From: a virus
Lineage: Duplodnaviria; Caudoviricetes
DNA length: 64,000 bases
IMG/VR virus record: IMGVR_UViG_3300033073_000736
Location: 19,484 to 83,483 of that record
Direction: 5' to 3' (one strand)
The translations under genes and the position numbers were made by a program. The notes beneath the pieces are model-generated. The model worked only from the letters and a program-made list of their open reading frames with translations, searched no databases and was not told where the DNA came from. Positions within the stretch are counted from its first letter, which is position 1. Every line of letters begins with the position of its first letter. Below, piece after piece: positions 11,229 to 64,000 of the stretch.

Positions 11229-13920
11229 CTGAGAAGATTGAGGAACGGAACGGAATCATTATTGATTATAGTCGTGACAAGTTGTTGCCTGAGAAGGGAT
11301 TGGCAATGCTTACAGCCAAGGGGTTTTACAAGAAGGACAATGAAGATTCCCCCCAACAATCTTTTGCACGAGCAGCAACGTGCTATTGTTTTGGGGATTA
11401 TGAGTTTGCTCAACGTATCTATGATGCCGCAAGCAAGCACTGGTTCACGTTTGCATCTCCTGTTCTCAGCAATGCTGTAGATGTAGAGTGGCCTACATTT
11501 ACTGAAGATGAATGGCTGGATGCAGCAAGTTGGCTACAACGGAATGTCGAGCCTGACGGTATGCCCATTTCTTGCTTCCTTGTGAAGATTCCTGACAACA
11601 AGAAGGGAATTGTCGAAGCACGAACTGAAACTGCTTGGTTGTCGATGATGGGCGGCGGGGTGGGTGTCTATGCCGCCAATCGCTCACCGGATGAGAAGAG
11701 TACGGGCGTGATGTCACATCTTCGTGGATATGATGCTGACACTCTCTCTTATCGTCAGACTGCCAGTCGTCGAGGAAGTATTGCAGCCTATGCAGATATT
11801 ACGCACCCTGAGATTCAATCGTTTATTCAGATGCGTAATCCCGTAGGCGGGGATGTAAACAAGAAGTGCTTCAATCTGAACAATGCTGTCAATCTCCCAG
11901 ATAGCTTCATGGAAGCAGTTATCAATGAACAAGATTACGAACTGGTTGATCCTAAGCATGGGCCGACAGGACGTAAACTGAACGCATCCAAGATGTTTGA
12001 AGAAGTGCTGGAAATGCGCTTTGAAACAGGTGAACCGTATCTGCATTTTGTAGATACAAGTAATCGCTGCAAGCCGAAGCAGATTACCAATCCGTTGTAC
12101 AAGGTGGAGCAAAGCAACTTGTGTTAATTTCTAGCACCCTGATACAGTAATGTATCTTGAAAACTTTCCTAAAAACGGTGAAACTCTCTAGTAGACAATA
12201 CCGTGCTATCTCGATATGAGGTGTGTAACGACTATGGACAAGAAACAACTTTACAAACTTATCTCAGCTTTTTCTATGGCAGACGGGGGTCTTTACCGTA
12301 GAAAAGAAAATCATAACGCTTATTTTGCAATGAATATGCTGACTTGCCACAATGATTACATTGATTGGGTAAAAAGCGTGTTTGAGAACTTAGTGCATGT
12401 CAACAAAACAAAAGTTCAAAACCCTTGCAAAAGGCCACAGACCAACATAAACACAAAGACGCATCCAGCACTTACAAGCATCCACGGAAGGATTTATCGG
12501 GATGGATATAAAGGGCTTGATGAACACTGGATACACTGCATTGATTGGGAAATATTGGCAATATTTTACATGGCGGACGGGTGTCTGGCAGTTGAACAGC
12601 CCAATACTAAAAAGGGACTAATCAACCCATCTCCGAGCGTGTCATTAAATATGAAACGACTTAGTTACGGGGATACATGGTTTCTCAAAAAGTGTATTAA
12701 AGACAATCTGGATGTGGAATTTAATATTGGAACTCAGAATTACAAAGGCAAGACATATTACTTTCTTCGCTTGCGTAATAAAGATATAGATAAGTTTATG
12801 GAAGGGATCAGACCCCACGTTGTTCCTTCCTTCCGGCATAAGTTGTATGATTCCGAACGGAAAGCCCCGGTGGCTGAAAGACCGGGTGATGATATAGTCT
12901 GAACTGCATAGCGATATGCAGAGGTGGGAGGAAACTGCCCACCCCCGTTTTTACGGAGTAACAAAATTGAGTGAAATAACACTGATGACTTCCGACAAGC
13001 GCACAGCCGTTTGTTGCTTGTCCTCTCTCAATCTTGAGAAGTATGATGAGTGGAAAGACAGCGGATTGGTGAAAGACCTTGTACGATTGCTTGATAACGT
13101 ACTGGAATACTTCATCCGTCTTGCACCGCCTGTTTTGAGTAAGGCTGTTTACTCAGCAAGTATGGAACGTAGCATTGGGATTGGAACGCTTGGTTGGCAC
13201 AGTTACTTGCAAAAGAACATGATTCCTTTTGAAAGTGGTGGATTTGGTAGTGCTGCACAACACACAAATATCTTGTATTCCAAGATTAAGAGTGAGGCAG
13301 AAGAAGCCGGTAAGGAACTTGCTGTAACTCGTGGCGAGGCTCCAGATTGTGCAGGTAGTGGGTATCGCAATGCTCATTTGCTGGCTATTGCTCCGAACGC
13401 ATCTTCAGCAGATATTATCGGTGTTTCACCAAGCATCGAGCCTTGGGCAGGGAACGCTTTCAATAATCAAGGACGGGCAGGAAGTTTTCTAATCAGGAAT
13501 AAGTACCTTGAAAAAGAACTTGACAAGGTAGGGCTTAATACCAAGGAAACATGGGATAGCATTATTGCTAATGATGGAAGTTGTCAGCATATTGATGAGT
13601 TGAGCGAAGATGTTAAGAAAGTGTTCAAGACAGCACGAGAGATTAATCCTATGTGGATTATTGAACTTGCATCCATCCGCCAACAATACATCTGCCAGAG
13701 CCAAAGCGTGAATATCTTTGTCCCTGAAGATATTACAATGCAAGAGATGGCTGACATCCATATTGCAGCTTGGAAGAAGGGGTTGAAGTCGCTGTACTAC
13801 TGTCGTGCCAAGGCTGCCGGAAAGGTGAACATTGGTACAGGTGGGGAAACGCCGCTAAACAGCATTCCAGTCCGTCAGAAGATTGAATGGGCTGGTGAGT
13901 GTTTGTCTTGTCAGGGTTAA
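11225..13920 (+). CDS. nrdA: class Ia ribonucleotide reductase alpha subunit, spliced (exons 11225-12124 and 12970-13920; ~616 aa)
   Basis: SPVLSN, PISCF, GGGVG; splicing restores QSNLC|SEITL; AVCCLSS, AIAPNASS, QSQSVN, SLYY, terminal CLSCQG. Confidence 0.95.
12125..12969 (+). mobile_element. group I intron (IA2-like) in nrdA
   Basis: 5' site after U with P1 GUGU/GCAC; P AAAACGGTGAA, Q CAATACCGTG, R AACGACTA, P3 CTTTCC/GGAAAG, S GATATAGTC, P9 hairpins, terminal G 12969. Confidence 0.93.
12234..12902 (+). CDS. intron-encoded two-motif LAGLIDADG homing endonuclease
   Basis: LISAFSMADGG and ILAIFYMADGC; ATG lies in the P7 strand, GAGGTG RBS. Confidence 0.85.
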   Translation: MDKKQLYKLISAFSMADGGLYRRKENHNAYFAMNMLTCHNDYIDWVKSVFENLVHVNKTKVQNPCKRPQTNINTKTHPALTSIHGRIYRDGYKGLDEHWIHCIDWEILAIFYMADGCLAVEQPNTKKGLINPSPSVSLNMKRLSYGDTWFLKKCIKDNLDVEFNIGTQNYKGKTYYFLRLRNKDIDKFMEGIRPHVVPSFRHKLYDSERKAPVAERPGDDIV

Positions 13921-13938
13921 ACAAAAAGGAGAATGTAA

Positions 13939-14931
13939 TTGTCAGTATTTAAGGAAAGTACGTCCTACCGCCCATTTGTCTATCCTTGGGCTGTAGAGAT
14001 GTCAAAGAAACATGCAATTGAAATGTTCTGGGATGTCCACCAAATTGAGTTGCAGGATGACTTGCGGCAATACAATAGCAAGGATGGGCTGAAGACAAAA
14101 GATGTATCCCACGAAACCAATAAGTACATCATTGACCAACTTCTGTGCGTCTTCACAGAGATGGACAAGACCGTTGCCGGTGGATATACACAGTTGTTGC
14201 CGTATGTCAAGAACAATGAGGCCCGAACATGGTTTCTCACAGTTGCTCAAAGAGAGACAGTACATCAACGCGGATATGCTATCCTTGCTGAAACATTTGG
14301 CTTTACGGATAAGGATTGGTCAAGGTTTAGCGAGTACGCAGAAATGCGCGATAAACTGGAAGCGATGACAGCCTCTCAATTGAAAGGACGAGACGAGTAC
14401 AAGGCTGCTGTCATCCTATCCACTATCTTACTTGGTGAGGGGATTGGATTGTTCGGGGCATTTGCTGTACTGCTTAATTTCAAGCGGCAAGGGAAGCTGA
14501 TGGGTTTTAATGATGTAAATCAGTGGAGCCTCCTCGACGAACAAGAACATGTTACAGGTAATATCAAGTTCTTGAACGAAATGCGTAAAGACTTGACTGA
14601 AGCTGAAAACTGGTCACTTGATTGTCTAATCAAGGATGTTATAAAGAAGTATGAAGATGCTGAACACCGTTTCCTAGACTTGGTGTATGCTATTGGAAGT
14701 CAGCAAGACTTGGATATTGAAGATGTAAAGAAGTATATCACTTACCTTGGCAAACTTCGTCTTTTCCAACTCGGACTCCTCTCTCTTGAGGAAGTGCCTA
14801 ACAATCCTCTTGATTGGATGGACTGGATGTTGACAGCCTCCAGACATGATGCTTTCTTTGAGAAACGTGTTACTGACTATTCTCATCGTAAGCTTGAGGG
14901 AAAGGTGGATTACGCCAAGTATAGGCAATAA
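13939..14931 (+). CDS. nrdB: ribonucleotide reductase beta subunit
   Basis: TTG start after AGGAG; YRPF.YPW, E.VHQRGY, GEG..LFGAF, DEQEH, FFEKRVTDY. Confidence 0.93.
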   Translation: MSVFKESTSYRPFVYPWAVEMSKKHAIEMFWDVHQIELQDDLRQYNSKDGLKTKDVSHETNKYIIDQLLCVFTEMDKTVAGGYTQLLPYVKNNEARTWFLTVAQRETVHQRGYAILAETFGFTDKDWSRFSEYAEMRDKLEAMTASQLKGRDEYKAAVILSTILLGEGIGLFGAFAVLLNFKRQGKLMGFNDVNQWSLLDEQEHVTGNIKFLNEMRKDLTEAENWSLDCLIKDVIKKYEDAEHRFLDLVYAIGSQQDLDIEDVKKYITYLGKLRLFQLGLLSLEEVPNNPLDWMDWMLTASRHDAFFEKRVTDYSHRKLEGKVDYAKYRQ

Positions 14932-48370: not shown

Positions 48371-49258
48371 ATGAATACGAAAAAACAGTTTAAACGTGAT
48401 ACAACACAAAACAGTAACAAACTGCACTTAGACCAATACTACACACCAGATGATGTAGCACAACACTGTATTGATACAGCGTTTGGTGTTATCGGTAAAG
48501 ATAGCATCTCTTGTGTTATAGAACCTAGTGCTGGTACAGGTGTTTTTAGTAGCAAGATAAAGAATTGTATTGCTTATGACATAGAACCTAAAGCTGATGG
48601 TATTGTACAAGCAGACTTCTTATCTTTAGATATTCCATATACACAAGGTACTTTGGTAATAGGTAATCCTCCTTTTGGTAGCAGAGGAAATCTAATGCAG
48701 AAGTTTTGTAAGCATAGTTTTACATTTGCTGATCATGTTGCATTTATATTACCTGTTAATCAACTCAATAACACAACAAGTATCTATGAGTTTGATTTAA
48801 TTCATTCAGAGGATATTGGTGTTAAAGATTATAGTGGTAGAAAAGTGCATTGTTGTTTTAACATATACAAGAGACCTGAAAACGGATTAAACAGCAAACC
48901 AAATTACAAAACAGATGTAATAGAGGTAAGAGAGGTAATAAAAAACCAAAATCCCAAGCGTAACAAAGAGCTTGGTGATTTTCAATACGATATTGCTATT
49001 TGCGCTTGGGGTGCTGCTATTGGCAAAGAATGTAGTGTTGGGCAGTATGCAAAAACATTTTACATTAAGATTAAAGATACGAAATATTTTGAATATTATA
49101 AATCTTTGATTCTTAATGCTGCTTGGTGTAACATATACAAAATGACGGGTACACCAAACCTGTTACAGTGGCAACTGTATAAGTATGTAAAAGAGAATCC
49201 ACCCCACACAAAAACCCGTAGCTTTGATGGAGTATTTAATCAAAACCTACACCAATGA
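48371..49258 (+). CDS. DNA N6-adenine methyltransferase (motif I before IV, AT-rich)
   Basis: [28 protein letters not shown]. Confidence 0.88.
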
Positions 49259-49337
49259 ATACGAAGTTGTGTTAGACTTCGCTTTCGGAAGTGGAAGTAC
49301 GGGTGTCGCTGCTTGGACATCGTGGTGTTATGTTTGA
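49200..49337 (+). pseudogene. remnant of a beta-class N4/N6 methyltransferase C-terminus
   Basis: Alternative frame reads [38 protein letters not shown], without a start. Confidence 0.8.
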
Positions 49338-49476
49338 TCAGGACAAGTGGGCTTTGTCTGAAATGGTTCAGTTTGTTTGGCGCAGTGCTATTCGTGACGA
49401 GAAACCGATTACGTTGTATGTGCCTAGCAAACGAATGAGGGATTTATTTATTAACTGGTTGAGTGAGGAACAATGA
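49291..49476 (+). pseudogene. C-terminal remnant of a larger conserved phage protein
   Basis: D.WALSEM.QF.WRSAIRD..PI.LY.PSKRMR.L...WL is recalled as the end of much longer proteins. Confidence 0.55.
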
Positions 49477-50279
49477 AAATGTTAGACAACAATGAACGTG
49501 TGTGGCTGATGCAAGGGGATTGCTTGGAGCGGATGAAAGAGATTCCTAGTGGCAGTGTGGATTTAACAGTTACAAGCCCTCCATATGACAACCTAAGAAC
49601 ATACGCTGGTACGCTTGAATGGAATTTTGAGATATTTCAGAAAGTAGCAAATGAGTTATACCGAATCACAAAAGATGGTGGTGTGGTGGTTTGGGTAGTT
49701 GGTGATGCCACTATTAAGGGAAGTGAAACAGGCACGTCATTTAGACAAGCTTTATATTTTAAAGAGATTGGCTTTAATTTGCATGATACGATGATTTGGG
49801 AGAAATCCACTTTCAGCGCAGTGGGGGCTTTAAAAACAAGATATGCCCCTGTTTTTGAATATATGTTTATTTTAGTTAAGGGTAAATTAAAGACTTTCAA
49901 CCCAATCAAGGATAAACCTAACAAGCATTTTGGTGTTAAGCATCACGGTACTTATAGAAAAGGTGACGGGACAACAAAAGAAGTTGTTGGAAAATCCAAA
50001 GGTAAGATTGTTGCTGAGTACGGTCAAAGATATAATGTTTGGCAAGTCAATGAAGAGAAAGTTTTGAATAAATTACATCCAGCAGTATTTCCTGAACAAC
50101 TAGCTAACGACCACATAATTTCATGGTCTAATGAAAATAACTTAGTATTCGACCCATTCATGGGAAGTGGTACAACAGGGAAAATGGCTATTCTAAATAA
50201 TCGTAGATTTATTGGTATTGAAAAAGTTGAAGAGTATTTCGATATTGCTAAAGATCGTATTGAGAAAGCCTTAAATTAA
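49473..50279 (+). CDS. DNA methyltransferase, beta class (N4C/N6A)
   Basis: GDCLE.M, VTSPPY, HPA.FP, DPFMGSGTTG, FIGIE. Confidence 0.93.
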   Translation: MKMLDNNERVWLMQGDCLERMKEIPSGSVDLTVTSPPYDNLRTYAGTLEWNFEIFQKVANELYRITKDGGVVVWVVGDATIKGSETGTSFRQALYFKEIGFNLHDTMIWEKSTFSAVGALKTRYAPVFEYMFILVKGKLKTFNPIKDKPNKHFGVKHHGTYRKGDGTTKEVVGKSKGKIVAEYGQRYNVWQVNEEKVLNKLHPAVFPEQLANDHIISWSNENNLVFDPFMGSGTTGKMAILNNRRFIGIEKVEEYFDIAKDRIEKALN

Positions 50280-50356
50280 TTAATTTGTGTTGCATCTTAT
50301 GTTTATTTTAATGTAAGATGCTCAAACAAGTTAAATGATGAATTTGAAGGAGAAGT

Positions 50357-50497
50357 ATGATGTTTGATAGAGAGTTTTATGTAGACAAGAAGCAAGAGAT
50401 TGACATTGACCAGAGACTTAGACAAATTGATGAGGTTTGAGCAGGCTTAGCTCCACACAAGGTTGTTAAGGCTTATTGCGACGAGGGGATACAATGA
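50357..50497 (+). pseudogene. small ORF interrupted by in-frame TGA (50438-50440)
   Basis: AAGGAG RBS; frame continues to an ATGA overlap with the next gene. Confidence 0.55.
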
Positions 50498-50685
50498 TTA
50501 CAGGTGACTTGTTTGCAGCCATCCTCTGCTTTGCTGGCACAGGACTTGCATTGACAATGTTTGGGTTTGTTGCATATTCTAAGAAATACTTGGAGTGTGT
50601 TCCTTTAGCATTTATTGGCATTACTTGGATTTTTGTAGGGTATGAACACCTGATTAAGTGGGCGGAGGTTGTATGTCGTCAATAG
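50494..50685 (+). CDS. small two-TM membrane protein
   Basis: Hydrophobic, coupled. Confidence 0.55.
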   Translation: MITGDLFAAILCFAGTGLALTMFGFVAYSKKYLECVPLAFIGITWIFVGYEHLIKWAEVVCRQ

Positions 50686-50831
50686 AGCAAAGACTCAAGA
50701 AGAAGCGAATGAAAATCTTCGGTTGGCGAGATGTCAGGTTTGCATATTTTGAAGCACCAGAACCAAGATATGAGGAAGTTGGAATAACTGGCGATTGGTA
50801 TAATCCAAAATGGGTGGACAGAGATGAGTAG
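50673..50831 (+). CDS. small basic protein, paralogue A
   Basis: MSSIEQRLKKKRMKIFGWR; GGAGG RBS. Confidence 0.6.
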   Translation: MSSIEQRLKKKRMKIFGWRDVRFAYFEAPEPRYEEVGITGDWYNPKWVDRDE

Positions 50832-50973
50832 TATCAGACAGCGCACTAAGGCAAAACGCATGAGAATGTGGGGATTGAGACAATTCTATGTGGATGGGCG
50901 TAGTTGTGTTGACTTCATCACGTTTGTTGGTTATACGAATGACTGGCATGATACGTTTGGGTGGGAGTGGTAA
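50824..50973 (+). CDS. small basic protein, paralogue B
   Basis: MSSIRQRTKAKRMRMWGLR. Confidence 0.6.
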   Translation: MSSIRQRTKAKRMRMWGLRQFYVDGRSCVDFITFVGYTNDWHDTFGWEW

Positions 50974-51128
50974 TGAAGAACAATGAAGTAGATCGCATAG
51001 ACCGAGGCATTGAAATGATTGACAGTGTTCTCGGGATTGGTAAAATAGCGGTGCTTGAGCTTCTCGCACCAGAACTTACTGCTGAAGAATATGACCGTAT
51101 TCTTTGTTGGATGATAGAGGAACAATAA
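50973..51128 (+). CDS. hypothetical protein
   Basis: TAATG coupling. Confidence 0.5.
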   Translation: MKNNEVDRIDRGIEMIDSVLGIGKIAVLELLAPELTAEEYDRILCWMIEEQ

Positions 51129-51129
51129 A

Positions 51130-51321
51130 ATGCACTTCCTTCTAATTCCTATCTTATGGCTTTTCATCATAAGCGCCATAGGTGGTGTATACACAGCTTC
51201 TTGTTCTTACGTTGACGAAGAAGTGAGACGTAAGAAAGAATGGACAAACTATACAATCAGTGATAAAGTGACACACGATGATCTTGTTGATTGTGGGTAT
51301 ATTGGGGATGAGAACAAATGA
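51130..51321 (+). CDS. small membrane protein
   Basis: GAGG RBS, N-terminal TM. Confidence 0.5.
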   Translation: MHFLLIPILWLFIISAIGGVYTASCSYVDEEVRRKKEWTNYTISDKVTHDDLVDCGYIGDENK

Positions 51322-51539
51322 CTATCATCGATAAGTTTGATTGTGGCTGTAGGGCTACAGAAGATGATGAAGATGGGAATTATGTAGCCCTGAAGCGACA
51401 AATTGCCTACCACAATGGTTGGAAGAATGTCATTCATTATGTGACGTATTGCAACGGTTGCTACATGCAGGCTGTTGAAGCGGGTTGTGTGGCAATGACA
51501 GATGAAGAAGAAATGAACTGGATTAGAGGAAAACAGTAA
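51318..51539 (+). CDS. hypothetical protein
   Basis: Coupled ORF. Confidence 0.55.
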   Translation: MTIIDKFDCGCRATEDDEDGNYVALKRQIAYHNGWKNVIHYVTYCNGCYMQAVEAGCVAMTDEEEMNWIRGKQ

Positions 51540-52246
51540 TGCGTTATTTTGGTGGAAAGCAACGAATCAGTAAACCGTTGGCAACATTCCTGAACAGTCA
51601 ACTGAAGCCCGGACAGGCTTTCTATGATATATTCTGTGGAAGCTGCAATGTTATCAGCAAGATTGACCCTCACCGGGACAGGATTGCTAATGACTTGCAC
51701 AAAGAATTGATTGCAATGTGGCGATATGTTCAGCAGGGCGGGGAGTTGCCAGATGAAATCAGTGAAGAAGAGTACAGAGATATAAAGAACAATGCCCCGG
51801 ACTGGTTAAAGGCATTTGTTGGCTTTGGTTGCAGTTTTGCTGGCAAGTATTGGGGCGGATATGCTCGTGACAACAGAGGAGGAACAAGGAAGTATTGCAG
51901 AAATGCCAAGAACAGTACGCTGAAGAAGATGTACACAATGCAGGATGTGTTGTTTGTAACGTGTGACTACCAGCAAATGAACATTGCACATAAGAATGCA
52001 ATGATTTATTGTGACATCCCTTACAAGGATTCTGTTGGATATAGTGTTGGGGCTTTCAACCACGAAGCATTCTATACTTGGGCCAAGAAGCAGAAGTGGA
52101 AAGGACATACAGTGCTAGTTAGTGAATACAAGCACAATGTTCCTGAGGGGTGGAAAGTTGTGTGGGAATACGAAAGCAAGAAAGACATTCGTGATAAGGA
52201 TGGTGTGCAGCAACCAACTGTCGAAATTCTTATGACGCCGTGTTGA
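51539..52246 (+). CDS. Dam-family (D12) N6-adenine methyltransferase
   Basis: MRYFGGKQR, DIFCGS.NV, YCDIPY, F.HE.F..W, LVSEY. Confidence 0.88.
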   Translation: MRYFGGKQRISKPLATFLNSQLKPGQAFYDIFCGSCNVISKIDPHRDRIANDLHKELIAMWRYVQQGGELPDEISEEEYRDIKNNAPDWLKAFVGFGCSFAGKYWGGYARDNRGGTRKYCRNAKNSTLKKMYTMQDVLFVTCDYQQMNIAHKNAMIYCDIPYKDSVGYSVGAFNHEAFYTWAKKQKWKGHTVLVSEYKHNVPEGWKVVWEYESKKDIRDKDGVQQPTVEILMTPC

Positions 52247-61161: not shown

Positions 61162-61377
61162 ATGGGTAGCACAGATGAGAAACAACTGACTTTGACTGAA
61201 TATGAGATTAATCTTCTGCTGTCTCTCGTAGACAGGGAAATAAGGGAAAGCTACAGCTATCTAAATCGGAACAAAGACTACTTACATCCGCGTGATGTCT
61301 TACGAAAAGAGGCCAACTTGAAAGCAACCGAAGCCTTAATGTCTAAACTGGAACAACTGATTGGAATTACAGCATGA
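61162..61377 (+). CDS. hypothetical protein
   Basis: AGGA RBS; ATGA overlap with next gene. Confidence 0.5.
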   Translation: MGSTDEKQLTLTEYEINLLLSLVDREIRESYSYLNRNKDYLHPRDVLRKEANLKATEALMSKLEQLIGITA

Positions 61378-61877
61378 ACAACGCTACACTGATTAATCAA
61401 GACAGCGGGAACTGTGAATACTATACACCTAGTCATATTATTGAACTGGCTAGAGAGGTGATGACAGGAATCAACCTTGACCCTTTCAGCAGCTTAGAAG
61501 CCAATCAACGTGTGAATGCTGACAGGATATTCACCGAACAGGATGATGGCTTAAAACAGCAATGGCAAGGGAATGTGTGGATGAATCATCCGTTTGGTAG
61601 GGAGATGAATAAGAAAGCCATTCAGAAACTGGTTAGTGAATATGAGAACGGAAACGTCACACAAGCCTGCTGTATCACATTTGCTGCTACAAGTGAGGGT
61701 TGGTTCAGACTGTTGTTGTCTTATCCAATGTGCTTCATTCATGGAAGAACTAACTACTACTTGAAAGACGGGACATTGAAGAAAGGGGTGACAAAGGGAA
61801 GTGTGGTGACATATCTTGGTAAGGATATTGAAAAGTTCAAGGAAGTGTTCAGTAAGATTGGAACTGTGAAAATATAG
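61374..61877 (+). CDS. phage N6-adenine DNA methyltransferase (small Dam-like family)
   Basis: YYTP, LDPFS, DDGL.Q.W.GNVWMNHPFGR, T...WF, GR..Y. Confidence 0.82.
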   Translation: MNNATLINQDSGNCEYYTPSHIIELAREVMTGINLDPFSSLEANQRVNADRIFTEQDDGLKQQWQGNVWMNHPFGREMNKKAIQKLVSEYENGNVTQACCITFAATSEGWFRLLLSYPMCFIHGRTNYYLKDGTLKKGVTKGSVVTYLGKDIEKFKEVFSKIGTVKI

Positions 61878-61899
61878 AACTATGTGGAGATATATAGCC

Positions 61900-61935
61900 A
61901 GCCAGCATTTGAATATGTTGTGCTGGCTTTTTTTT
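61900..61935 (+). terminator. intrinsic terminator
   Basis: AGCCAGCA-13-TGCTGGCT + T tract. Confidence 0.7.
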
Positions 61936-61956
61936 GTTTATTGGAGATTGTGTACT

Positions 61957-62469
61957 ATGATTTATGCTGGAATTGGCAGTAGAGAGACACCAGAAGAGGT
62001 GTTGATCAAGATGGAGAAGATCGCTTTCTGTCTGGCTCAGAGATATGATGCCGTCTTACGATCAGGTGGGGCTATAGGGGCAGATAGTGCTTTTGAAGCA
62101 GGGTGTGACAGGGCTAATGGCAAGAAGGAAATCTTCTATGCCAAGGAATGGCAGAATAGGATAAAGCCGACTAAAGAAGCATGGAAAGAAGCTGAATACA
62201 TAGCCTCACAAATACATCCAGCTTGGGACAGGTGTAATGAATATGTAAGGAAACTGCACAGCAGGAATTGTTTTCAGATTCTTGGGGTGGGTTTGAATAG
62301 TCCAGTGGACATGGTAGTGTGTTATGCTAAAGAATACAAGTATGGTGATCCACAAGGAGGGACAAGGACAGCAATCATGTTGGCTAGAGAACACAATCTC
62401 CCTGTGTACAACCTGTTTGTTGATGGAATGATTGAGAAGTTGAGACGGTTGGTTGTAAAGCAACAATAA
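61957..62469 (+). CDS. SLOG/DprA-like nucleotide-binding protein
   Basis: YAGIGSRETP, LRSGGA.GAD.AFE, RN..QILG, GGT.TA. Confidence 0.8.
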   Translation: MIYAGIGSRETPEEVLIKMEKIAFCLAQRYDAVLRSGGAIGADSAFEAGCDRANGKKEIFYAKEWQNRIKPTKEAWKEAEYIASQIHPAWDRCNEYVRKLHSRNCFQILGVGLNSPVDMVVCYAKEYKYGDPQGGTRTAIMLAREHNLPVYNLFVDGMIEKLRRLVVKQQ

Positions 62470-62487
62470 TTATTTTATTAAATATAT

Positions 62488-62517
62488 TCCCTGCCAGAAA
62501 TGGTGGGGATTTTTTTT
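62488..62517 (+). terminator. intrinsic terminator ending the + strand block
   Basis: TCCCTGCCA-GAAA-TGGTGGGGA + T tract. Confidence 0.85.
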
Positions 62518-62644
62518 GCGGGACAAGGATGCCCGCTACACCTGTTTTCAACCATTTCCTGTCAAAATATCATCCCACTCCTTGTTATACTGTTCCCATT
62601 TCCTCCTCTTCCTATACGTTCTCCAATTCCCTATCTTTGAGAGT

Positions 62645-62734
62645 TGAAAAGGGTTATTGGCTCTTTATCTGTAATATCAAAAACGGTACTGGCTCTTTAG
62701 GTACATTATCAAAAACGGTACTGGCTCTTTAGGT
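62645..62734. repeat. 32-bp-period tandem repeat (two 28-bp identical copies + one partial)
   Basis: TATCAAAAACGGTACTGGCTCTTTAGGT at 62675 and 62707; TGGCTCTTTA at 62658, 62690, 62722. Confidence 0.9.
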
Positions 62735-62789
62735 GTTAAGCAGACATATGCCGTCCGGTCGATAGATTTCTAGTAATCCTAAAATATCG

Positions 62790-62802
62790 TAAGTGATTGA
62801 TT
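62790..62802 (-). promoter_or_regulatory. IHF consensus site
   Basis: AATCAA-TCAC-TTA = WATCAAN4TTR. Confidence 0.6.
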
Positions 62803-63187
62803 TTAAAGGAATGCAATGATAGCCCTGTGATATACGTTTATAGCCGATAATAGTCATTATGTTAAAGATTGACCCTCGCTCATCCCTGACAAGGCGGGGG
62901 AGAGGGTACTGGCGTATGGCTCATAACAGGATAATGCGGGAGGATTGCAGGGATAGTCCGTTCGTGGATAGTTCGATTACAAATAATCGGAAAAAGCCCC
63001 TATATTGGTTTTCAAGTTTAACAAATAAGGTAGTTCTCTCTCACCACACACAATTATACCGCCTAGAATAATTACATTCCGCACAATCACGTTTCCCAAT
63101 GTTATACATGCCACACAACAGACATTCAGCAAATAAATACCCCATAGCATTATCATTCCACAAATAAATATAGAATACTTGAACAAT

Positions 63188-63604
63188 TGGCACACTTCTT
63201 GATTTTACAATACTTTTCTAGGCTATTCCTACCATTGATGTTTTTTTGACCACATTTCTAAATTGAGTGATCGGACGCAAGTCATAACAGAAAAGAATGA
63301 CATTAGACAATGGCACAATCAAAAATGACATATTGTTGGCATACTTATTGCCTGAGTTAGCCTAGTGTTTTTGGCACGTTATTTGCTTATATGCGATAAG
63401 TGTAACAAATTATTAAAATCAATTTTCATGCCAATTTGATTGACCGAAAAACACATAAAAGCCAGAAAACAGAGGGAAGGGGAAAAACGGACATAGGGCT
63501 AGAACCGCGTAGAAGTCGATTCTAGGCACGCATGGCTCAGGGCAGGCTAGGGTATAGGCTAGGGGGGAGATCGTGGCAGGAAGGCAGTTGGCACGATAGT
63601 TGCT
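63188..63604. promoter_or_regulatory. cluster of sigma54 (-24/-12) boxes
   Basis: +: TGGCACACTTCTTGAT 63188, TGGCATACTTATTGCC 63337, TGGCACGTTATTTGCT 63372, TGGCACGATAGTTGCT 63589; -: TGGCATGAAAATTGAT 63433-63418. Confidence 0.7.
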
Positions 63605-63659
63605 AGAGAATTGAATGGCATTAAAAATGTGCCATTGTACAATGTAATTTGCAGGCATG

Positions 63660-63681
63660 AAAAAGCCCCTTAAATGGGGCT
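63660..63681 (-). terminator. intrinsic terminator for incoming - strand genes
   Basis: AGCCCC-ATTTAA-GGGGCT-TTTT. Confidence 0.8.
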
Positions 63682-63689
63682 TGTAGGGG

Positions 63690-63833
63690 CTATGCGCTAT
63701 CCCTCCTCGCTTTACGCTTGTATGCCGGATTATTCCGGCTAGCTTTGGTTTGTATGGCTGGCATGGCTTGAATGTCACGCCAGAACAATTCCGATTGTTG
63801 CTTGTCGGCTTTTGACTGGGAATGTTTTAGCAT
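63690..63833 (-). CDS. small basic protein (47 aa)
   Basis: MLKHSQSK...KRKARRDSA*; start overlaps the upstream stop; terminator follows. Confidence 0.5.
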   Translation of the reverse strand: MLKHSQSKADKQQSELFWRDIQAMPAIQTKASRNNPAYKRKARRDSA

Positions 63834-63985
63834 AGCACTTTCCCCATAATCGCCCATTCCATATCCTTATCTAGCCTTATCAGAATGCCACAAAAGGCAT
63901 TCATACCATATGCACCATGCCACCCATGCTTGGCTTCATAACTATCATCTGACACCCGCATAAAATCGCCAATAGCGAAAATCAT
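63827..63985 (-). CDS. small hypothetical protein (52 aa)
   Basis: AGGGA RBS, MIFAIGDF...KVLC*. Confidence 0.5.
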   Translation of the reverse strand: MIFAIGDFMRVSDDSYEAKHGWHGAYGMNAFCGILIRLDKDMEWAIMGKVLC

Positions 63986-64000
63986 TCCCTGATAACGGAT

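What the first reader, a model, noticed from the sequence alone, without database searches (positions are those of the whole stretch)
63188..63604. Five sigma54 -24/-12 boxes packed into 420 bp of gene-free DNA
Seen: three boxes with exact GG-N10-GC spacing (63337, 63372, 63589; two are TGGCACG-N4-TTGCT), two TGGCA-N6-TTGAT variants (63188 +, 63418-63433 -), and a lone TGGCAC at 63311. The + boxes point at a convergent terminator and antisense to small genes, not at any ORF. The rest of the window uses sigma70 promoters and shows no enhancer-binding ATPase. Known: sigma54 holoenzyme forms stable closed complexes that do not fire without an AAA+ activator, often with IHF. Inference: an undescribed non-coding device near the genome end, such as a decoy array titrating host sigma54-RNAP (silencing flagellar, pilus, nitrogen or phage-shock programmes), a protein roadblock or anchor for DNA entry or packaging, or host-state-gated antisense promoters. 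I noticed only two comparable matches elsewhere, both inside CDS.
Basis: partly seen in the sequence, partly recalled or inferred. Interest (0 to 1): 0.82.

Follow-up and report, generated by a model that had tools for sequence, protein, structure and literature searches.

The report
Sigma-54 promoter boxes in phage gap
A gene-free stretch of an uncultured 83-kb phage holds two textbook and three weaker docking sites for the host's sigma-54 RNA polymerase; some related phages keep such sites facing the same way and others lack them, so they look like optional, host-activated promoters for short non-coding or antisense RNAs rather than a demonstrated decoy.

Summary
All five boxes and the lone TGGCAC are at the stated coordinates. 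The only two perfect TGGCACG-N4-TTGCW matches in the 83.5-kb contig lie here, 217 nt apart on the + strand (0.02 expected). All five TTGGCAY-N5-TTGMY matches fall within 63187-63604 (0.24 expected).

"Near the genome end" is wrong. The contig is a circle cut inside a gene, about 8 nt short.

The boxes sit in the right part of a 1.2-kb gene-free gap between convergent gene clusters. Four of them lie in a 317-nt segment (63313-63629) that two other metagenomes' relatives lack. Relatives L026, L030, L008 and L007 keep sigma-54-type boxes on the same strand. GG and GC stay fixed there while the spacers change. Relatives L010 and L012 have none.

No enhancer-binding ATPase is encoded, and no ORF lies downstream. 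The boxes face a palindrome, a terminator hairpin and the 3' ends of small early genes.

Best reading (0.45): real host sigma-54 promoters for short non-coding or antisense RNA, carried as a dispensable accessory module. The decoy or roadblock reading is not excluded (0.15).

Same-strand box pairs occur in at least 120 unrelated viral contigs, against 21 with wrong spacing. This scan has reported such phage sigma-54 clusters before on other DNA. The published precedent is phage YuA.

The parts
62470..63689 (.). 1.2-kb gene-free gap between the + cluster (ends with a DprA-like gene at 61882-62469) and the - strand small-gene cluster (last stop at 63690)
   Evidence: ORF list. The ORFs inside the gap match no PHROG family, and the flanking gene matches phrog_768, DprA-like. 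No tRNA and no Rfam family. Relatives have the same layout.
63187..63203 (+). Weak box TTGGCAC-N5-TTGAT (no -12 C). It is the left arm of a 23-nt inverted repeat with the box at 63418-63434.
   Evidence: inverted repeat I2
63283..63303 (.). Block CATAACAGAAAAGAATGACAT upstream of the boxes, shared with L026, L030, L012 and the X3 variant
   Evidence: Read and the bridging letters
63313..63629 (.). 317-nt presence/absence segment flanked by AATG. It holds the boxes at 63337, 63372, 63418(-) and 63589. The lone TGGCAC at 63311 straddles its left junction.
   Evidence: An X3 contig joins 63285 to 63626 with 23 bridging letters, and an X4 loose end shows the same. Inverted repeat I1, 63296-63317 against 63628-63649.
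63336..63352 (+). Box TTGGCATAC-N3-TTGCC (GG-N10-GC). TTGGCATAC is also present in L007 and L008.
63371..63387 (+). Perfect sigma-54 consensus box ('box a', P1). The inferred start is near 63398. The conserved TGTAACAAA follows at 63401-63409.
   Evidence: TGTAACAAA follows the first box in L026 and L030 as well.
63418..63434 (-). Weak box TTGGCAT-N5-TTGAT on the - strand, face to face with P1
63466..63585 (+). G-cluster-rich tract between P1 and P2 with GGCTAGG repeats and a CTAGAA-N17-TTCTAG dyad
   Evidence: Read; 5-mer enrichment of CCTAG and CCCTA
63588..63604 (+). Perfect sigma-54 consensus box ('box b', P2). The inferred start is at 63615.
   Evidence: In register with the second box of L026, L030 and L008 in alignment A2, with GG and GC invariant.
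63615..63682 (+). Putative short transcript from P2: a 5' hairpin (63615-63637), the perfect palindrome CATTGTACAATG (63633-63644), an A/U-rich linker, and a terminator hairpin (63663-63682) that lacks a U-tract on this strand
   Evidence: Folds. The palindrome occurs once in the genome. The block is conserved in L010, L026 and L030.
63690..64000 (-). Small - strand genes that the + boxes face: a 55-aa ORF (63690-63857) and the C-terminal 57 codons of a 96-aa-family gene that runs over the contig end

Best explanation
The boxes are genuine recognition sites for the host's sigma-54 (RpoN) RNA polymerase. The two perfect ones (63372 and 63589, orthologous to 'box a' and 'box b' of related phages) work as activator-dependent promoters firing rightwards. 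They would make short non-coding RNA that ends at, or reads through, the hairpin at 63663-63682 and is then antisense to the 3' ends of the small early genes on the - strand. The phage encodes no enhancer-binding ATPase, so firing would depend on a host activator and therefore on the host's state. The three weaker boxes are degenerate duplicated or inverted copies. The whole set is an accessory, fast-turning-over module, not a core part of the phage. Shown here: the sequence matches, their rarity, their conservation pattern and their dispensability. Inferred: sigma-54 binding, start sites, transcripts and dependence on a host activator.
For: (1) The only two 12-of-12 consensus matches in 83.5 kb lie here on one strand, with 0.02 expected. 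Their flanks and spacers differ, so what they share is the consensus itself and not a repeat. (2) Related phages carry boxes at the same place and in the same orientation. L026 has TTGGCTTGATCTTTGCA and TTGGCATGATTTTAGCA. L030 has TTGGCGTGATCTTTGCA and TTGGTATAATTATTGCC. L008 has TTGGCACGTTTTTAGCG. L007 has TTGGCATACTCTTTGCC. In alignment A2 the second box of four lineages keeps GG and GC at N10 while 6 of 16 positions change between L026 and L030. (3) TGGC-N7-TWGC occurs 8 times on the + strand and once on the - strand in 9.7 kb of homologous gaps, with 0.47 expected per strand. (4) All boxes have T at -27. The perfect ones also have G at -20 and T at -11, as in the published consensus (recalled from Barrios et al. 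1999). (5) Layout: box a is followed by the conserved TGTAACAAA. Box b is followed by a conserved block and a hairpin that carries a U-rich tail on this strand in L026 and L010. L007 has a sigma-70-like TTGACA-N17-CATACT at the same position, so a short rightward transcript may be the conserved feature. (6) Same-strand pairs of such boxes occur in at least 120 viral contigs, against 21 with N7 spacing. The positions the search pattern left free in 507 boxes give T 64% at -27, G 70% at -20, R 75% at -19 and W 87% at -11. (7) Precedent: development of phage YuA depends on host sigma-54, and one sigma-54-like start site was mapped by ONT-cappable-seq (PMC5053324; bioRxiv 10.1101/2023.10.13.562163).
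Against: No ORF and no known RNA family lies downstream. Fold z-scores are weak, between -1.3 and -2.0 for the window's candidates. I found no convincing upstream activator site or IHF site. The host is unknown, so the presence of rpoN cannot be checked. In the window the hairpin lacks a U-tract on the + strand. Relatives L010 and L012 and the X3/X4 variants do without the boxes. Two boxes lack the -12 C, and one faces the other way. In the wider viral class, arrays of up to 9 alternating boxes in 200 nt cannot all be productive promoters. A crude test also showed no clear preference for ORF starts downstream.
Confidence: 0.45

Rival explanations
1. Sigma-54 docking sites that act without transcription. 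As the phage genome replicates, the sites soak up the small host pool of sigma-54 holoenzyme (a sponge). Alternatively, parked closed complexes insulate the gap from read-through of the early operon (a roadblock).
For: There is no ORF downstream and no phage-encoded activator. Sites are clustered, mixed in orientation and partly degenerate. Box b lies about 60 nt beyond the early-operon terminator and next to a sigma-70-like leftward promoter match. Dense alternating arrays in unrelated viral contigs look like docking arrays, and five near-complete phages carrying paired boxes encode no PF00158 protein above the cut-off. Decoy roles were floated for non-canonical sigma-54 sites in E. coli (PMC4591121, section 20). 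From memory and unverified: E. coli holds only about 100 sigma-54 molecules per cell.
Against: A sink does not need the strand bias seen across relatives (8 against 1). Only two sites are high-quality. The module is absent from close relatives. Roadblock repression by RNAP:sigma-54 was effectively ruled out in E. coli (PMC4591121, sections 11 and 20).
Confidence: 0.15
2. The TGGCA-containing boxes are sites for another DNA-binding protein of the phage or host. They would belong to the ACAATG/CATTGT and TGGCA/TGCCA dyad family that fills these gaps, and they resemble sigma-54 promoters only by accident.
For: The boxes form inverted pairs (I1 and I2). The TGGCAC at 63188 and at 63311 are embedded in ACAAT(T)GGCAC, and ACAATG-type repeats are abundant in L008, L012 and L026. 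The box in L007 is also a TGGCA-N7-TGCCA dyad, and L007 has other TGGCA dyads. TTGAT variants recur (window twice, L008 once).
Against: The right half of the boxes conserves TTGC(W) and not the dyad partner TGCCAA. GG and GC at N10 are the invariant positions. Two sites match all 12 consensus positions, including G at -20. Spacing between boxes is irregular (149, 35, 47 and 170 nt start to start). Unrelated phages share the same box type without sharing proteins with this phage.
Confidence: 0.15
3. The module is a functionless passenger: a piece of promoter-bearing DNA picked up and shuffled by illegitimate recombination in a hyperplastic region. It is tolerated because sigma-54 promoters stay silent without an activator.
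For: The 317-nt segment is flanked by 4-nt direct repeats and is absent in the X3/X4 relatives. In run X1 the 968-nt piece carrying it has depth 5.3 against 12.4 for the flank, which suggests mixed haplotypes. The order of boxes and of the motifs GTAACAA and CAGACGG is permuted between L008 and L026. Bonocora et al. expect some sigma-54 sites to be noise (PMC4591121).
Against: GG-N10-GC is retained through heavy divergence of spacers and flanks in at least four lineages, with consistent orientation. Two sites are still perfect, which is unlikely for drifting sequence.
Confidence: 0.15
4. The promoters serve replication. Rightward transcripts through the G-cluster tract (63466-63585) would form R-loops that prime or activate an origin in the gap.
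For: G clusters lie on the non-template strand downstream of P1. G-rich tracts and tandem repeats are a constant feature of the homologous gaps. In an unrelated contig, L090, two DnaA-box-like TGTGGATAA motifs sit inside a six-box array. Eight unrelated arrays lie near a homologue of this phage's 876-aa protein (contig 11945-14575), whose function I did not determine.
Against: In relatives the G-rich tracts lie upstream of the boxes, not downstream. The module is dispensable. No initiator gene or AT-rich unwinding element lies next to it. An activator-dependent promoter would be an odd choice for an essential origin.
Confidence: 0.05

Closest known systems
Classical bacterial sigma-54 (RpoN) -24/-12 promoters, e.g. 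glnAp2 with NtrC or pspA with PspF
   Same: TGGCAC-N5-TTGCW with GG-N10-GC, Y at -27, G at -20 and W at -11; expected to be silent without an AAA+ activator.
   Different: No upstream activator site or IHF site was identified, no gene lies downstream, the host and its activator are unknown, and several sites are clustered, one inverted and two without the -12 C.
Host sigma-54-dependent promoters of Pseudomonas aeruginosa phage YuA (Ceyssens et al. 2008, as cited in PMC5053324 and bioRxiv 10.1101/2023.10.13.562163)
   Same: A phage without its own sigma-54 or activator uses the host's sigma-54 polymerase.
   Different: YuA's promoter activity was shown by promoter trap and by start-site mapping, and its development depends on sigma-54. 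Here the sites are in a dispensable gene-free module and nothing is shown experimentally. The phages are not related as far as I could see.
Sigma-54-dependent small-RNA genes such as glmY/glmZ with GlrR (PMC3045617; PMC4591121 section 11); from memory also Qrr with LuxO and CrcZ with CbrB
   Same: A sigma-54 promoter followed by a short non-coding transcript that ends in a hairpin.
   Different: No sequence or Rfam similarity, no recognisable activator sites, and a weak terminator on this strand in the window.
Intragenic and antisense sigma-54 binding sites of E. coli (Bonocora et al. 2015, PMC4591121)
   Same: High-quality sigma-54 sites that are not in front of genes, mostly bound by inactive holoenzyme, with function debated (promoters for long 5'-UTR RNAs, decoys or noise).
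   Different: Those are scattered single sites in a bacterial chromosome. Here they are clustered in a phage's non-coding module and amplified with the phage genome.
Sigma-54 box clusters in other uncultured viral contigs
   Same: Same-strand or alternating TGGCAY-N5-TTGC boxes in phage DNA, mostly without a phage-encoded activator.
   Different: The window's cluster is sparse (2 strict and 3 loose boxes in 420 nt, against up to 9 in 200 nt). Its phage shares no close genes with those contigs.

Membership tests
Sigma-54 (RpoN) -24/-12 promoter | GG at -25/-24 and GC at -13/-12, exactly 10 nt apart, within TGGCAC-N5-TTGCW | tested here: met
   The boxes at 63372 and 63589 match TGGCACG-N4-TTGCW perfectly, and 63337 keeps GG-N10-GC. 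The boxes at 63188 and 63418(-) fail at the -12 C (TTGAT).
Sigma-54 (RpoN) -24/-12 promoter | The core dinucleotides and their spacing are conserved in orthologous sites while other positions drift | tested here: met
   In alignment A2 the second box of the window, L026, L030 and L008 keeps GG and GC. Strand-biased enrichment in 10 homologous gaps. The boxes are absent from L010, L012 and X3/X4.
Sigma-54 (RpoN) -24/-12 promoter | An enhancer-binding AAA+ activator with binding sites about 80-150 bp upstream, often with an IHF site | tested here: inconclusive
   No PF00158 match in the contig. Dyads and repeats exist upstream (CTAGAA-N17-TTCTAG, AATGACAT twice). None matched the activator or IHF consensus sequences I recalled, and none is conserved with relatives.
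Sigma-54 (RpoN) -24/-12 promoter | The host encodes rpoN, the holoenzyme binds, and transcription starts about 12 nt after the GC and depends on rpoN | not testable with these tools
   The host is unknown. The two MAGs that hold relatives gave no PF04552 match, but their binning and completeness are uncertain. No RNA run holds the stretch.
YuA-type phage sigma-54 promoters | Promoter placed in front of phage genes and needed for phage development | tested here: not met
   No ORF lies downstream on the + strand. The module is missing from close relatives. All other relaxed matches in the genome lie inside ORFs.
Iteron-type origin or other regular protein-binding repeat array | Three or more like-oriented repeats at regular, helically phased spacing, next to an AT-rich unwinding element and an initiator gene | tested here: not met
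   Box starts at 63187, 63336, 63371, 63418(-) and 63588 give irregular spacing and mixed orientation. The neighbours are a DprA-like gene and small unknown ORFs.
Sigma-54-dependent sRNA families in Rfam (GlmY/GlmZ, Qrr, CrcZ and others) | Match to the family covariance model | tested here: not met
   cmscan of 61800-64000 at E up to 1 gave only three chance-level hits to unrelated families.

The most novel reading that the evidence does not exclude
The boxes are not mainly promoters. They are docking sites whose copy number rises with phage DNA replication until they hold most of the cell's scarce sigma-54 holoenzyme in idle closed complexes, shutting down sigma-54-dependent host programmes such as stress, motility, nitrogen or RNA-repair responses. 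On this view the sparse cluster here and the dense alternating arrays in more than 100 unrelated viral contigs are the same DNA-based sigma-factor sink, which no paper I found describes.
Probability: 0.15. Interest if true: 0.85.

Novelty: new variant of a known kind. Interest (0 to 1): 0.6.

Why it matters
Sigma-54 promoters are silent until a host ATPase activator fires them, so a phage that carries them ties part of its transcription to the host's physiological state. Only one phage, YuA, is on record as depending on host sigma-54. Here the sites face no gene. They are gained and lost between close relatives. The same box type recurs in pairs and arrays in well over a hundred unrelated uncultured phage contigs, most without an activator gene. 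If they are promoters, phages have a hidden layer of host-gated non-coding or antisense RNAs. If they are sinks, phages have a DNA-based way to disarm an alternative sigma factor. Either outcome is directly testable with a cloned 420-bp fragment.

Tried and rejected
DNA searches of the gap against the phage record collection found nothing, near or distant. A single-protein scan of viral contigs with the DprA-like gene found no relative.

The record behind L001 is not held, so its far end could not be read.

ARAGORN found no tRNA in the window. Rfam gave nothing meaningful.

No RNA holder is listed for the stretch, so expression could not be examined.

RNA folds of the candidate transcripts give only weak z-scores, so structure alone does not establish an sRNA.

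PHROG scans of 26 neighbouring or gap ORFs showed methyltransferases, PhoH, a ClpP-like protease and a DprA-like protein, but no regulator or activator.

The search for rpoN in the two MAGs that hold relatives was negative but uninformative.

The test for ORF starts downstream of viral box runs, against flipped controls, was not decisive: 62 against 48 within 150 nt.

Readings I considered and dropped:
- The boxes as sigma-70 promoters with TTGGCA as the -35 element: there is no consistent -10.
- T4 MotA-box middle promoters, because TGCTT occurs in P1: this does not hold for the other boxes.
- NtrC, NifA, LuxO, FleQ, CbrB, GlrR or IHF sites recalled from memory: none is convincing.
- A small protein from the 24-codon ORF at 63533 or from 10-16-codon ORFs after box b: there is no ribosome-binding site and the ORFs are not conserved.
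- The 119-aa - strand ORF at 63419-63778: it spans the terminator hairpin and matches no family.
- A physical genome terminus: the contig end lies inside a gene.

Full report
**1. What the DNA is**

The window is bases 19484-83483 of a single 83,483-bp viral contig. IMG/VR lists it as linear and 74% complete. The completeness figure is misleading.

- The last 174 bases of the window encode, on the - strand, the C-terminal 57 residues of a 96-aa protein family (82% identity to P0122 residues 40-96).
- The first 103 bases of the contig encode the N-terminal 34 residues of the same family (58% identity to residues 3-35; reading; homologues).
- About 8 nt are missing between the two ends.

The contig is therefore a circular or permuted map cut inside a gene, and the finding is not near a physical genome end.

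Portal-level relatives are Pseudomonas phages at only 49% identity. No DNA-level relative exists in the phage record collection. The host is unknown.

**2. The setting**

The region 62470-63689 is a 1.2-kb gap. On its left, a + strand cluster of several DNA methyltransferases, PhoH and a ClpP-like protease ends with a DprA-like gene and a terminator at 62488-62517. On its right, a - strand cluster of small genes ends at 63690 behind a hairpin at 63663-63682.

ORFs inside the gap match no phage protein family. There is no tRNA and no Rfam family.

I obtained homologous gaps from relatives through the two flanking genes. These are L001, L003, L007, L008, L009, L010, L012, L026 and L030. They share the same layout:
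- a conserved element of about 70 nt after GGCTCTT repeats;
- a conserved ATAAT-N4-ATTAT dyad;
- G-rich or tandem-repeat stretches, at which several assemblies break;
- ACAATG-type repeats;
- a block containing the palindrome CATTGTACAATG just before the terminator.

**3. The observation**

| Pattern | Matches | Where | Expected by shuffling |
|---|---|---|---|
| TGGCACG-N4-TTGCW | 2 | 63372 and 63589, both + | 0.02 |
| TTGGCAY-N5-TTGMY | 5 | all within 63187-63604 | 0.24 (0 of 100 shuffles reach 5) |

The two strict matches are also the only 0-mismatch hits in the whole contig. The relaxed form TGGC-N7-TWGC has 8 other matches in the genome, all inside ORFs. No Sigma54_activat or Sigma54_DBD domain is encoded.

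The two perfect boxes differ in spacer and flanks (family D7). What they share is the sigma-54 consensus itself, not a duplicated stretch.

**4. Finer anatomy**

- The two TTGAT variants (63187 on +, 63418 on -) are arms of a 23-nt inverted repeat.
- A 22-nt inverted repeat links 63296-63317 with 63628-63649.
- Contigs from two other metagenomes join 63285 to 63626 through 23 bridging letters (X3), or show the same junction as a loose end (X4).
- It follows that a 317-nt segment (63313-63629, flanked by AATG) is present here and absent in those relatives. It carries the boxes at 63337, 63372, 63418(-) and 63589.
- The lone TGGCAC at 63311 is created by the left junction of this segment.
- In run X1 the identical 63001-63968 piece is a separate contig at depth 5.3, against 12.4 for the flanking 12.7-kb contig. 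This hints that haplotypes with and without this version coexist.

**5. Conservation**

The closest relatives with full-length gaps, L010 and L012, have no box at all. Other lineages do have boxes, always in the window's + orientation:

| Locus | Box(es) |
|---|---|
| L026 | TTGGCTTGATCTTTGCA, then 56 nt on, TTGGCATGATTTTAGCA |
| L030 | TTGGCGTGATCTTTGCA and TTGGTATAATTATTGCC |
| L008 | TTGGCATACATTTTGAT and TTGGCACGTTTTTAGCG |
| L007 | TTGGCATACTCTTTGCC |

- Alignment A2 puts the window's P2 in register with the second box of L026, L030 and L008. GG and GC are invariant there while the spacer changes, with 6 of 16 positions differing between L026 and L030.
- Across 9.7 kb of homologous gaps, TGGC-N7-TWGC occurs 8 times on the + strand and once on the - strand, with 0.47 expected per strand.
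- The first box is followed by the conserved TGTAACAAA in the window, L026 and L030.
- The L026 lineage has a third box of the same orientation inside the adjacent small gene.

This is the pattern expected of selection on sigma-54 core positions in an element that is optional for the phage.

**6. What the boxes point at**

From the -12 C, the inferred starts are near 63398 (P1) and at 63615 (P2). No + strand ORF of 30 codons or more follows. The tiny ORFs that do follow are not conserved.

P2 would give an RNA of about 70 nt with three parts: a 5' hairpin, the palindrome-containing linker, and the hairpin that terminates the convergent genes.

- In L026 and L010 that hairpin has a U-rich tail on this strand. 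In the window it does not, so read-through antisense to the 55-aa and 96-aa genes is possible.
- L007 has a sigma-70-like TTGACA-N17-CATACT at the equivalent place, about 95 nt before its hairpin. A short rightward transcript may therefore be the conserved feature, with the promoter type varying.

All of this is inference. No RNA data exist for the stretch.

**7. The wider picture**

I scanned 2.9 million viral contigs for two TGGCAY-N5-TTGC boxes on one strand, 14-44 nt apart.

The same pattern with N7 spacing gave 21.
- In the 507 boxes of those stretches, the positions the pattern left free reproduce the sigma-54 consensus: T 64% at -27, G 70% at -20, R 75% at -19 and W 87% at -11.
- 78 of the 120 loci have three or more boxes within 600 nt. 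Some have 9 in 200 nt with alternating strands.
- These contigs are not relatives of this phage.
- Five near-complete examples encode no PF00158 protein above the cut-off.
- TTGA variants are about tenfold enriched around such clusters, which fits the window's two TTGAT boxes as decayed copies.

Earlier notes of this scan report the same class on other DNA.

On the published record, phage YuA depends on host sigma-54 and has one mapped sigma-54-like start site (PMC5053324; bioRxiv 10.1101/2023.10.13.562163). My literature searches found no description of such clusters.

**8. Weighing the readings**

The chance of sequence identity with sigma-54 sites is high. I put it at about 0.7 that RpoN holoenzyme binds the two perfect boxes.

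| Reading | Confidence | Main points for | Main points against |
|---|---|---|---|
| Activator-dependent promoters for non-coding or antisense RNA | 0.45 | Strand bias, conserved downstream sequence, the layout of box then hairpin, the YuA precedent | No UAS found, no RNA data, module dispensable |
| Sink or roadblock | 0.15 | No target gene, no phage activator, dense arrays elsewhere | Strand bias, dispensability, and E. coli data that effectively ruled out roadblock repression by RNAP:sigma-54 (PMC4591121, sections 11 and 20) |
| Site of another protein | 0.15 | Inverted pairs and the ACAATG/TGGCA dyad context | The conserved right half is TTGC, not the dyad partner |
| Functionless passenger | 0.15 | Indel flanked by 4-nt repeats, mixed haplotypes, permuted motif order | GG-N10-GC retained through heavy divergence |
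| Transcription-primed origin | 0.05 | G clusters downstream of P1; DnaA-like motifs in L090 | G tracts lie upstream of the boxes in relatives; no initiator gene |

**9. Verdict**

The sigma-54 reading of the motif is well supported. The 'genome end' context is an artefact.

The decoy remains an open minority possibility.

This locus is a sparse, dispensable example of a recurrent and essentially undescribed feature of uncultured phages, for which YuA is the only published relative in kind.

Noticed in passing
window 63827-64000 and contig start (L031:2-103): The contig's two ends hold the two halves of one 96-aa-family gene, with about 8 nt missing. The 83.5-kb contig is therefore essentially a complete circular map, and CheckV's 74% is an underestimate. 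Three relatives' contigs are 80.4-80.5 kb.
   Followed up: yes
window 62647-62788: Three 32-nt direct repeats (each containing GGCTCTT) lead into an element of about 70 nt (GTTAAGC ... TCGAT ... AATCCTnAAATATC). The element is conserved in every relative's gap, even at 56% identity of the neighbouring protein. It may be a packaging, origin or phage-promoter element.
   Followed up: partly
window 62847-62866: Dyad ATAAT-N4-ATTAT followed by G(T/A)TAAAAG, conserved in L008, L010, L012 and L026 and partly in L009. Function unknown.
   Followed up: no
L001:8800-9068; L003:5930-6000: Relatives' assemblies end inside tandem 12-mer arrays in the same gap: GATAGAGGGGTT about 8 times and CCCTCTACCTTC about 4 times in L001, and ATACCCTGGAAG at least 5 times in L003. 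The gap is a hotspot of lineage-specific short tandem repeats.
   Followed up: no
L026:460-1700 (reverse strand): This relative has two extra small genes between the 96-aa gene and the gap. Each ends in a terminator hairpin followed by the same block, CCATTGTACAATGTAA. This is a cassette-boundary arrangement reminiscent of the PeSL units of T4-like phages.
   Followed up: partly
L026:472-487, L030:1957-1972, L027-L029 (reverse strand): A third sigma-54-like box, TGGCTTGAGCCTTGCT, lies next to or inside the small gene adjacent to the 96-aa gene, antisense to it and in the same orientation as the gap boxes. It is absent at the equivalent place in the window.
   Followed up: no
L007:9405-9535: At the place where the window has sigma-54 box b, this relative has a sigma-70-like TTGACA-N17-CATACT followed by about 95 nt and the bidirectional terminator. 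Four AATGTAACA repeats lie 60-160 nt upstream.
   Followed up: partly
L054:3441-3640; L090:1660-1860: Unrelated viral contigs show extreme arrays. L054 has 9 boxes in 200 nt as face-to-face pairs whose -12 halves form TTGCA-N5-TGCAA dyads. L090 has six same-strand boxes with two DnaA-box-like TGTGGATAA motifs in the middle. Two L090 boxes are nearly identical, spacer included, to the window's boxes at 63188 and 63589.
   Followed up: partly
window 63001-63968: In public run X1 this piece is an identical but separate 968-nt contig at less than half the depth of the flanking contig. This suggests that several versions of this region coexist in one sample.
   Followed up: no
window 48371-52246 and 61374-61877: At least four DNA methyltransferase genes (families phrog_799, 67, 56 and 111) lie in the + strand cluster upstream of the gap.
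   Followed up: no
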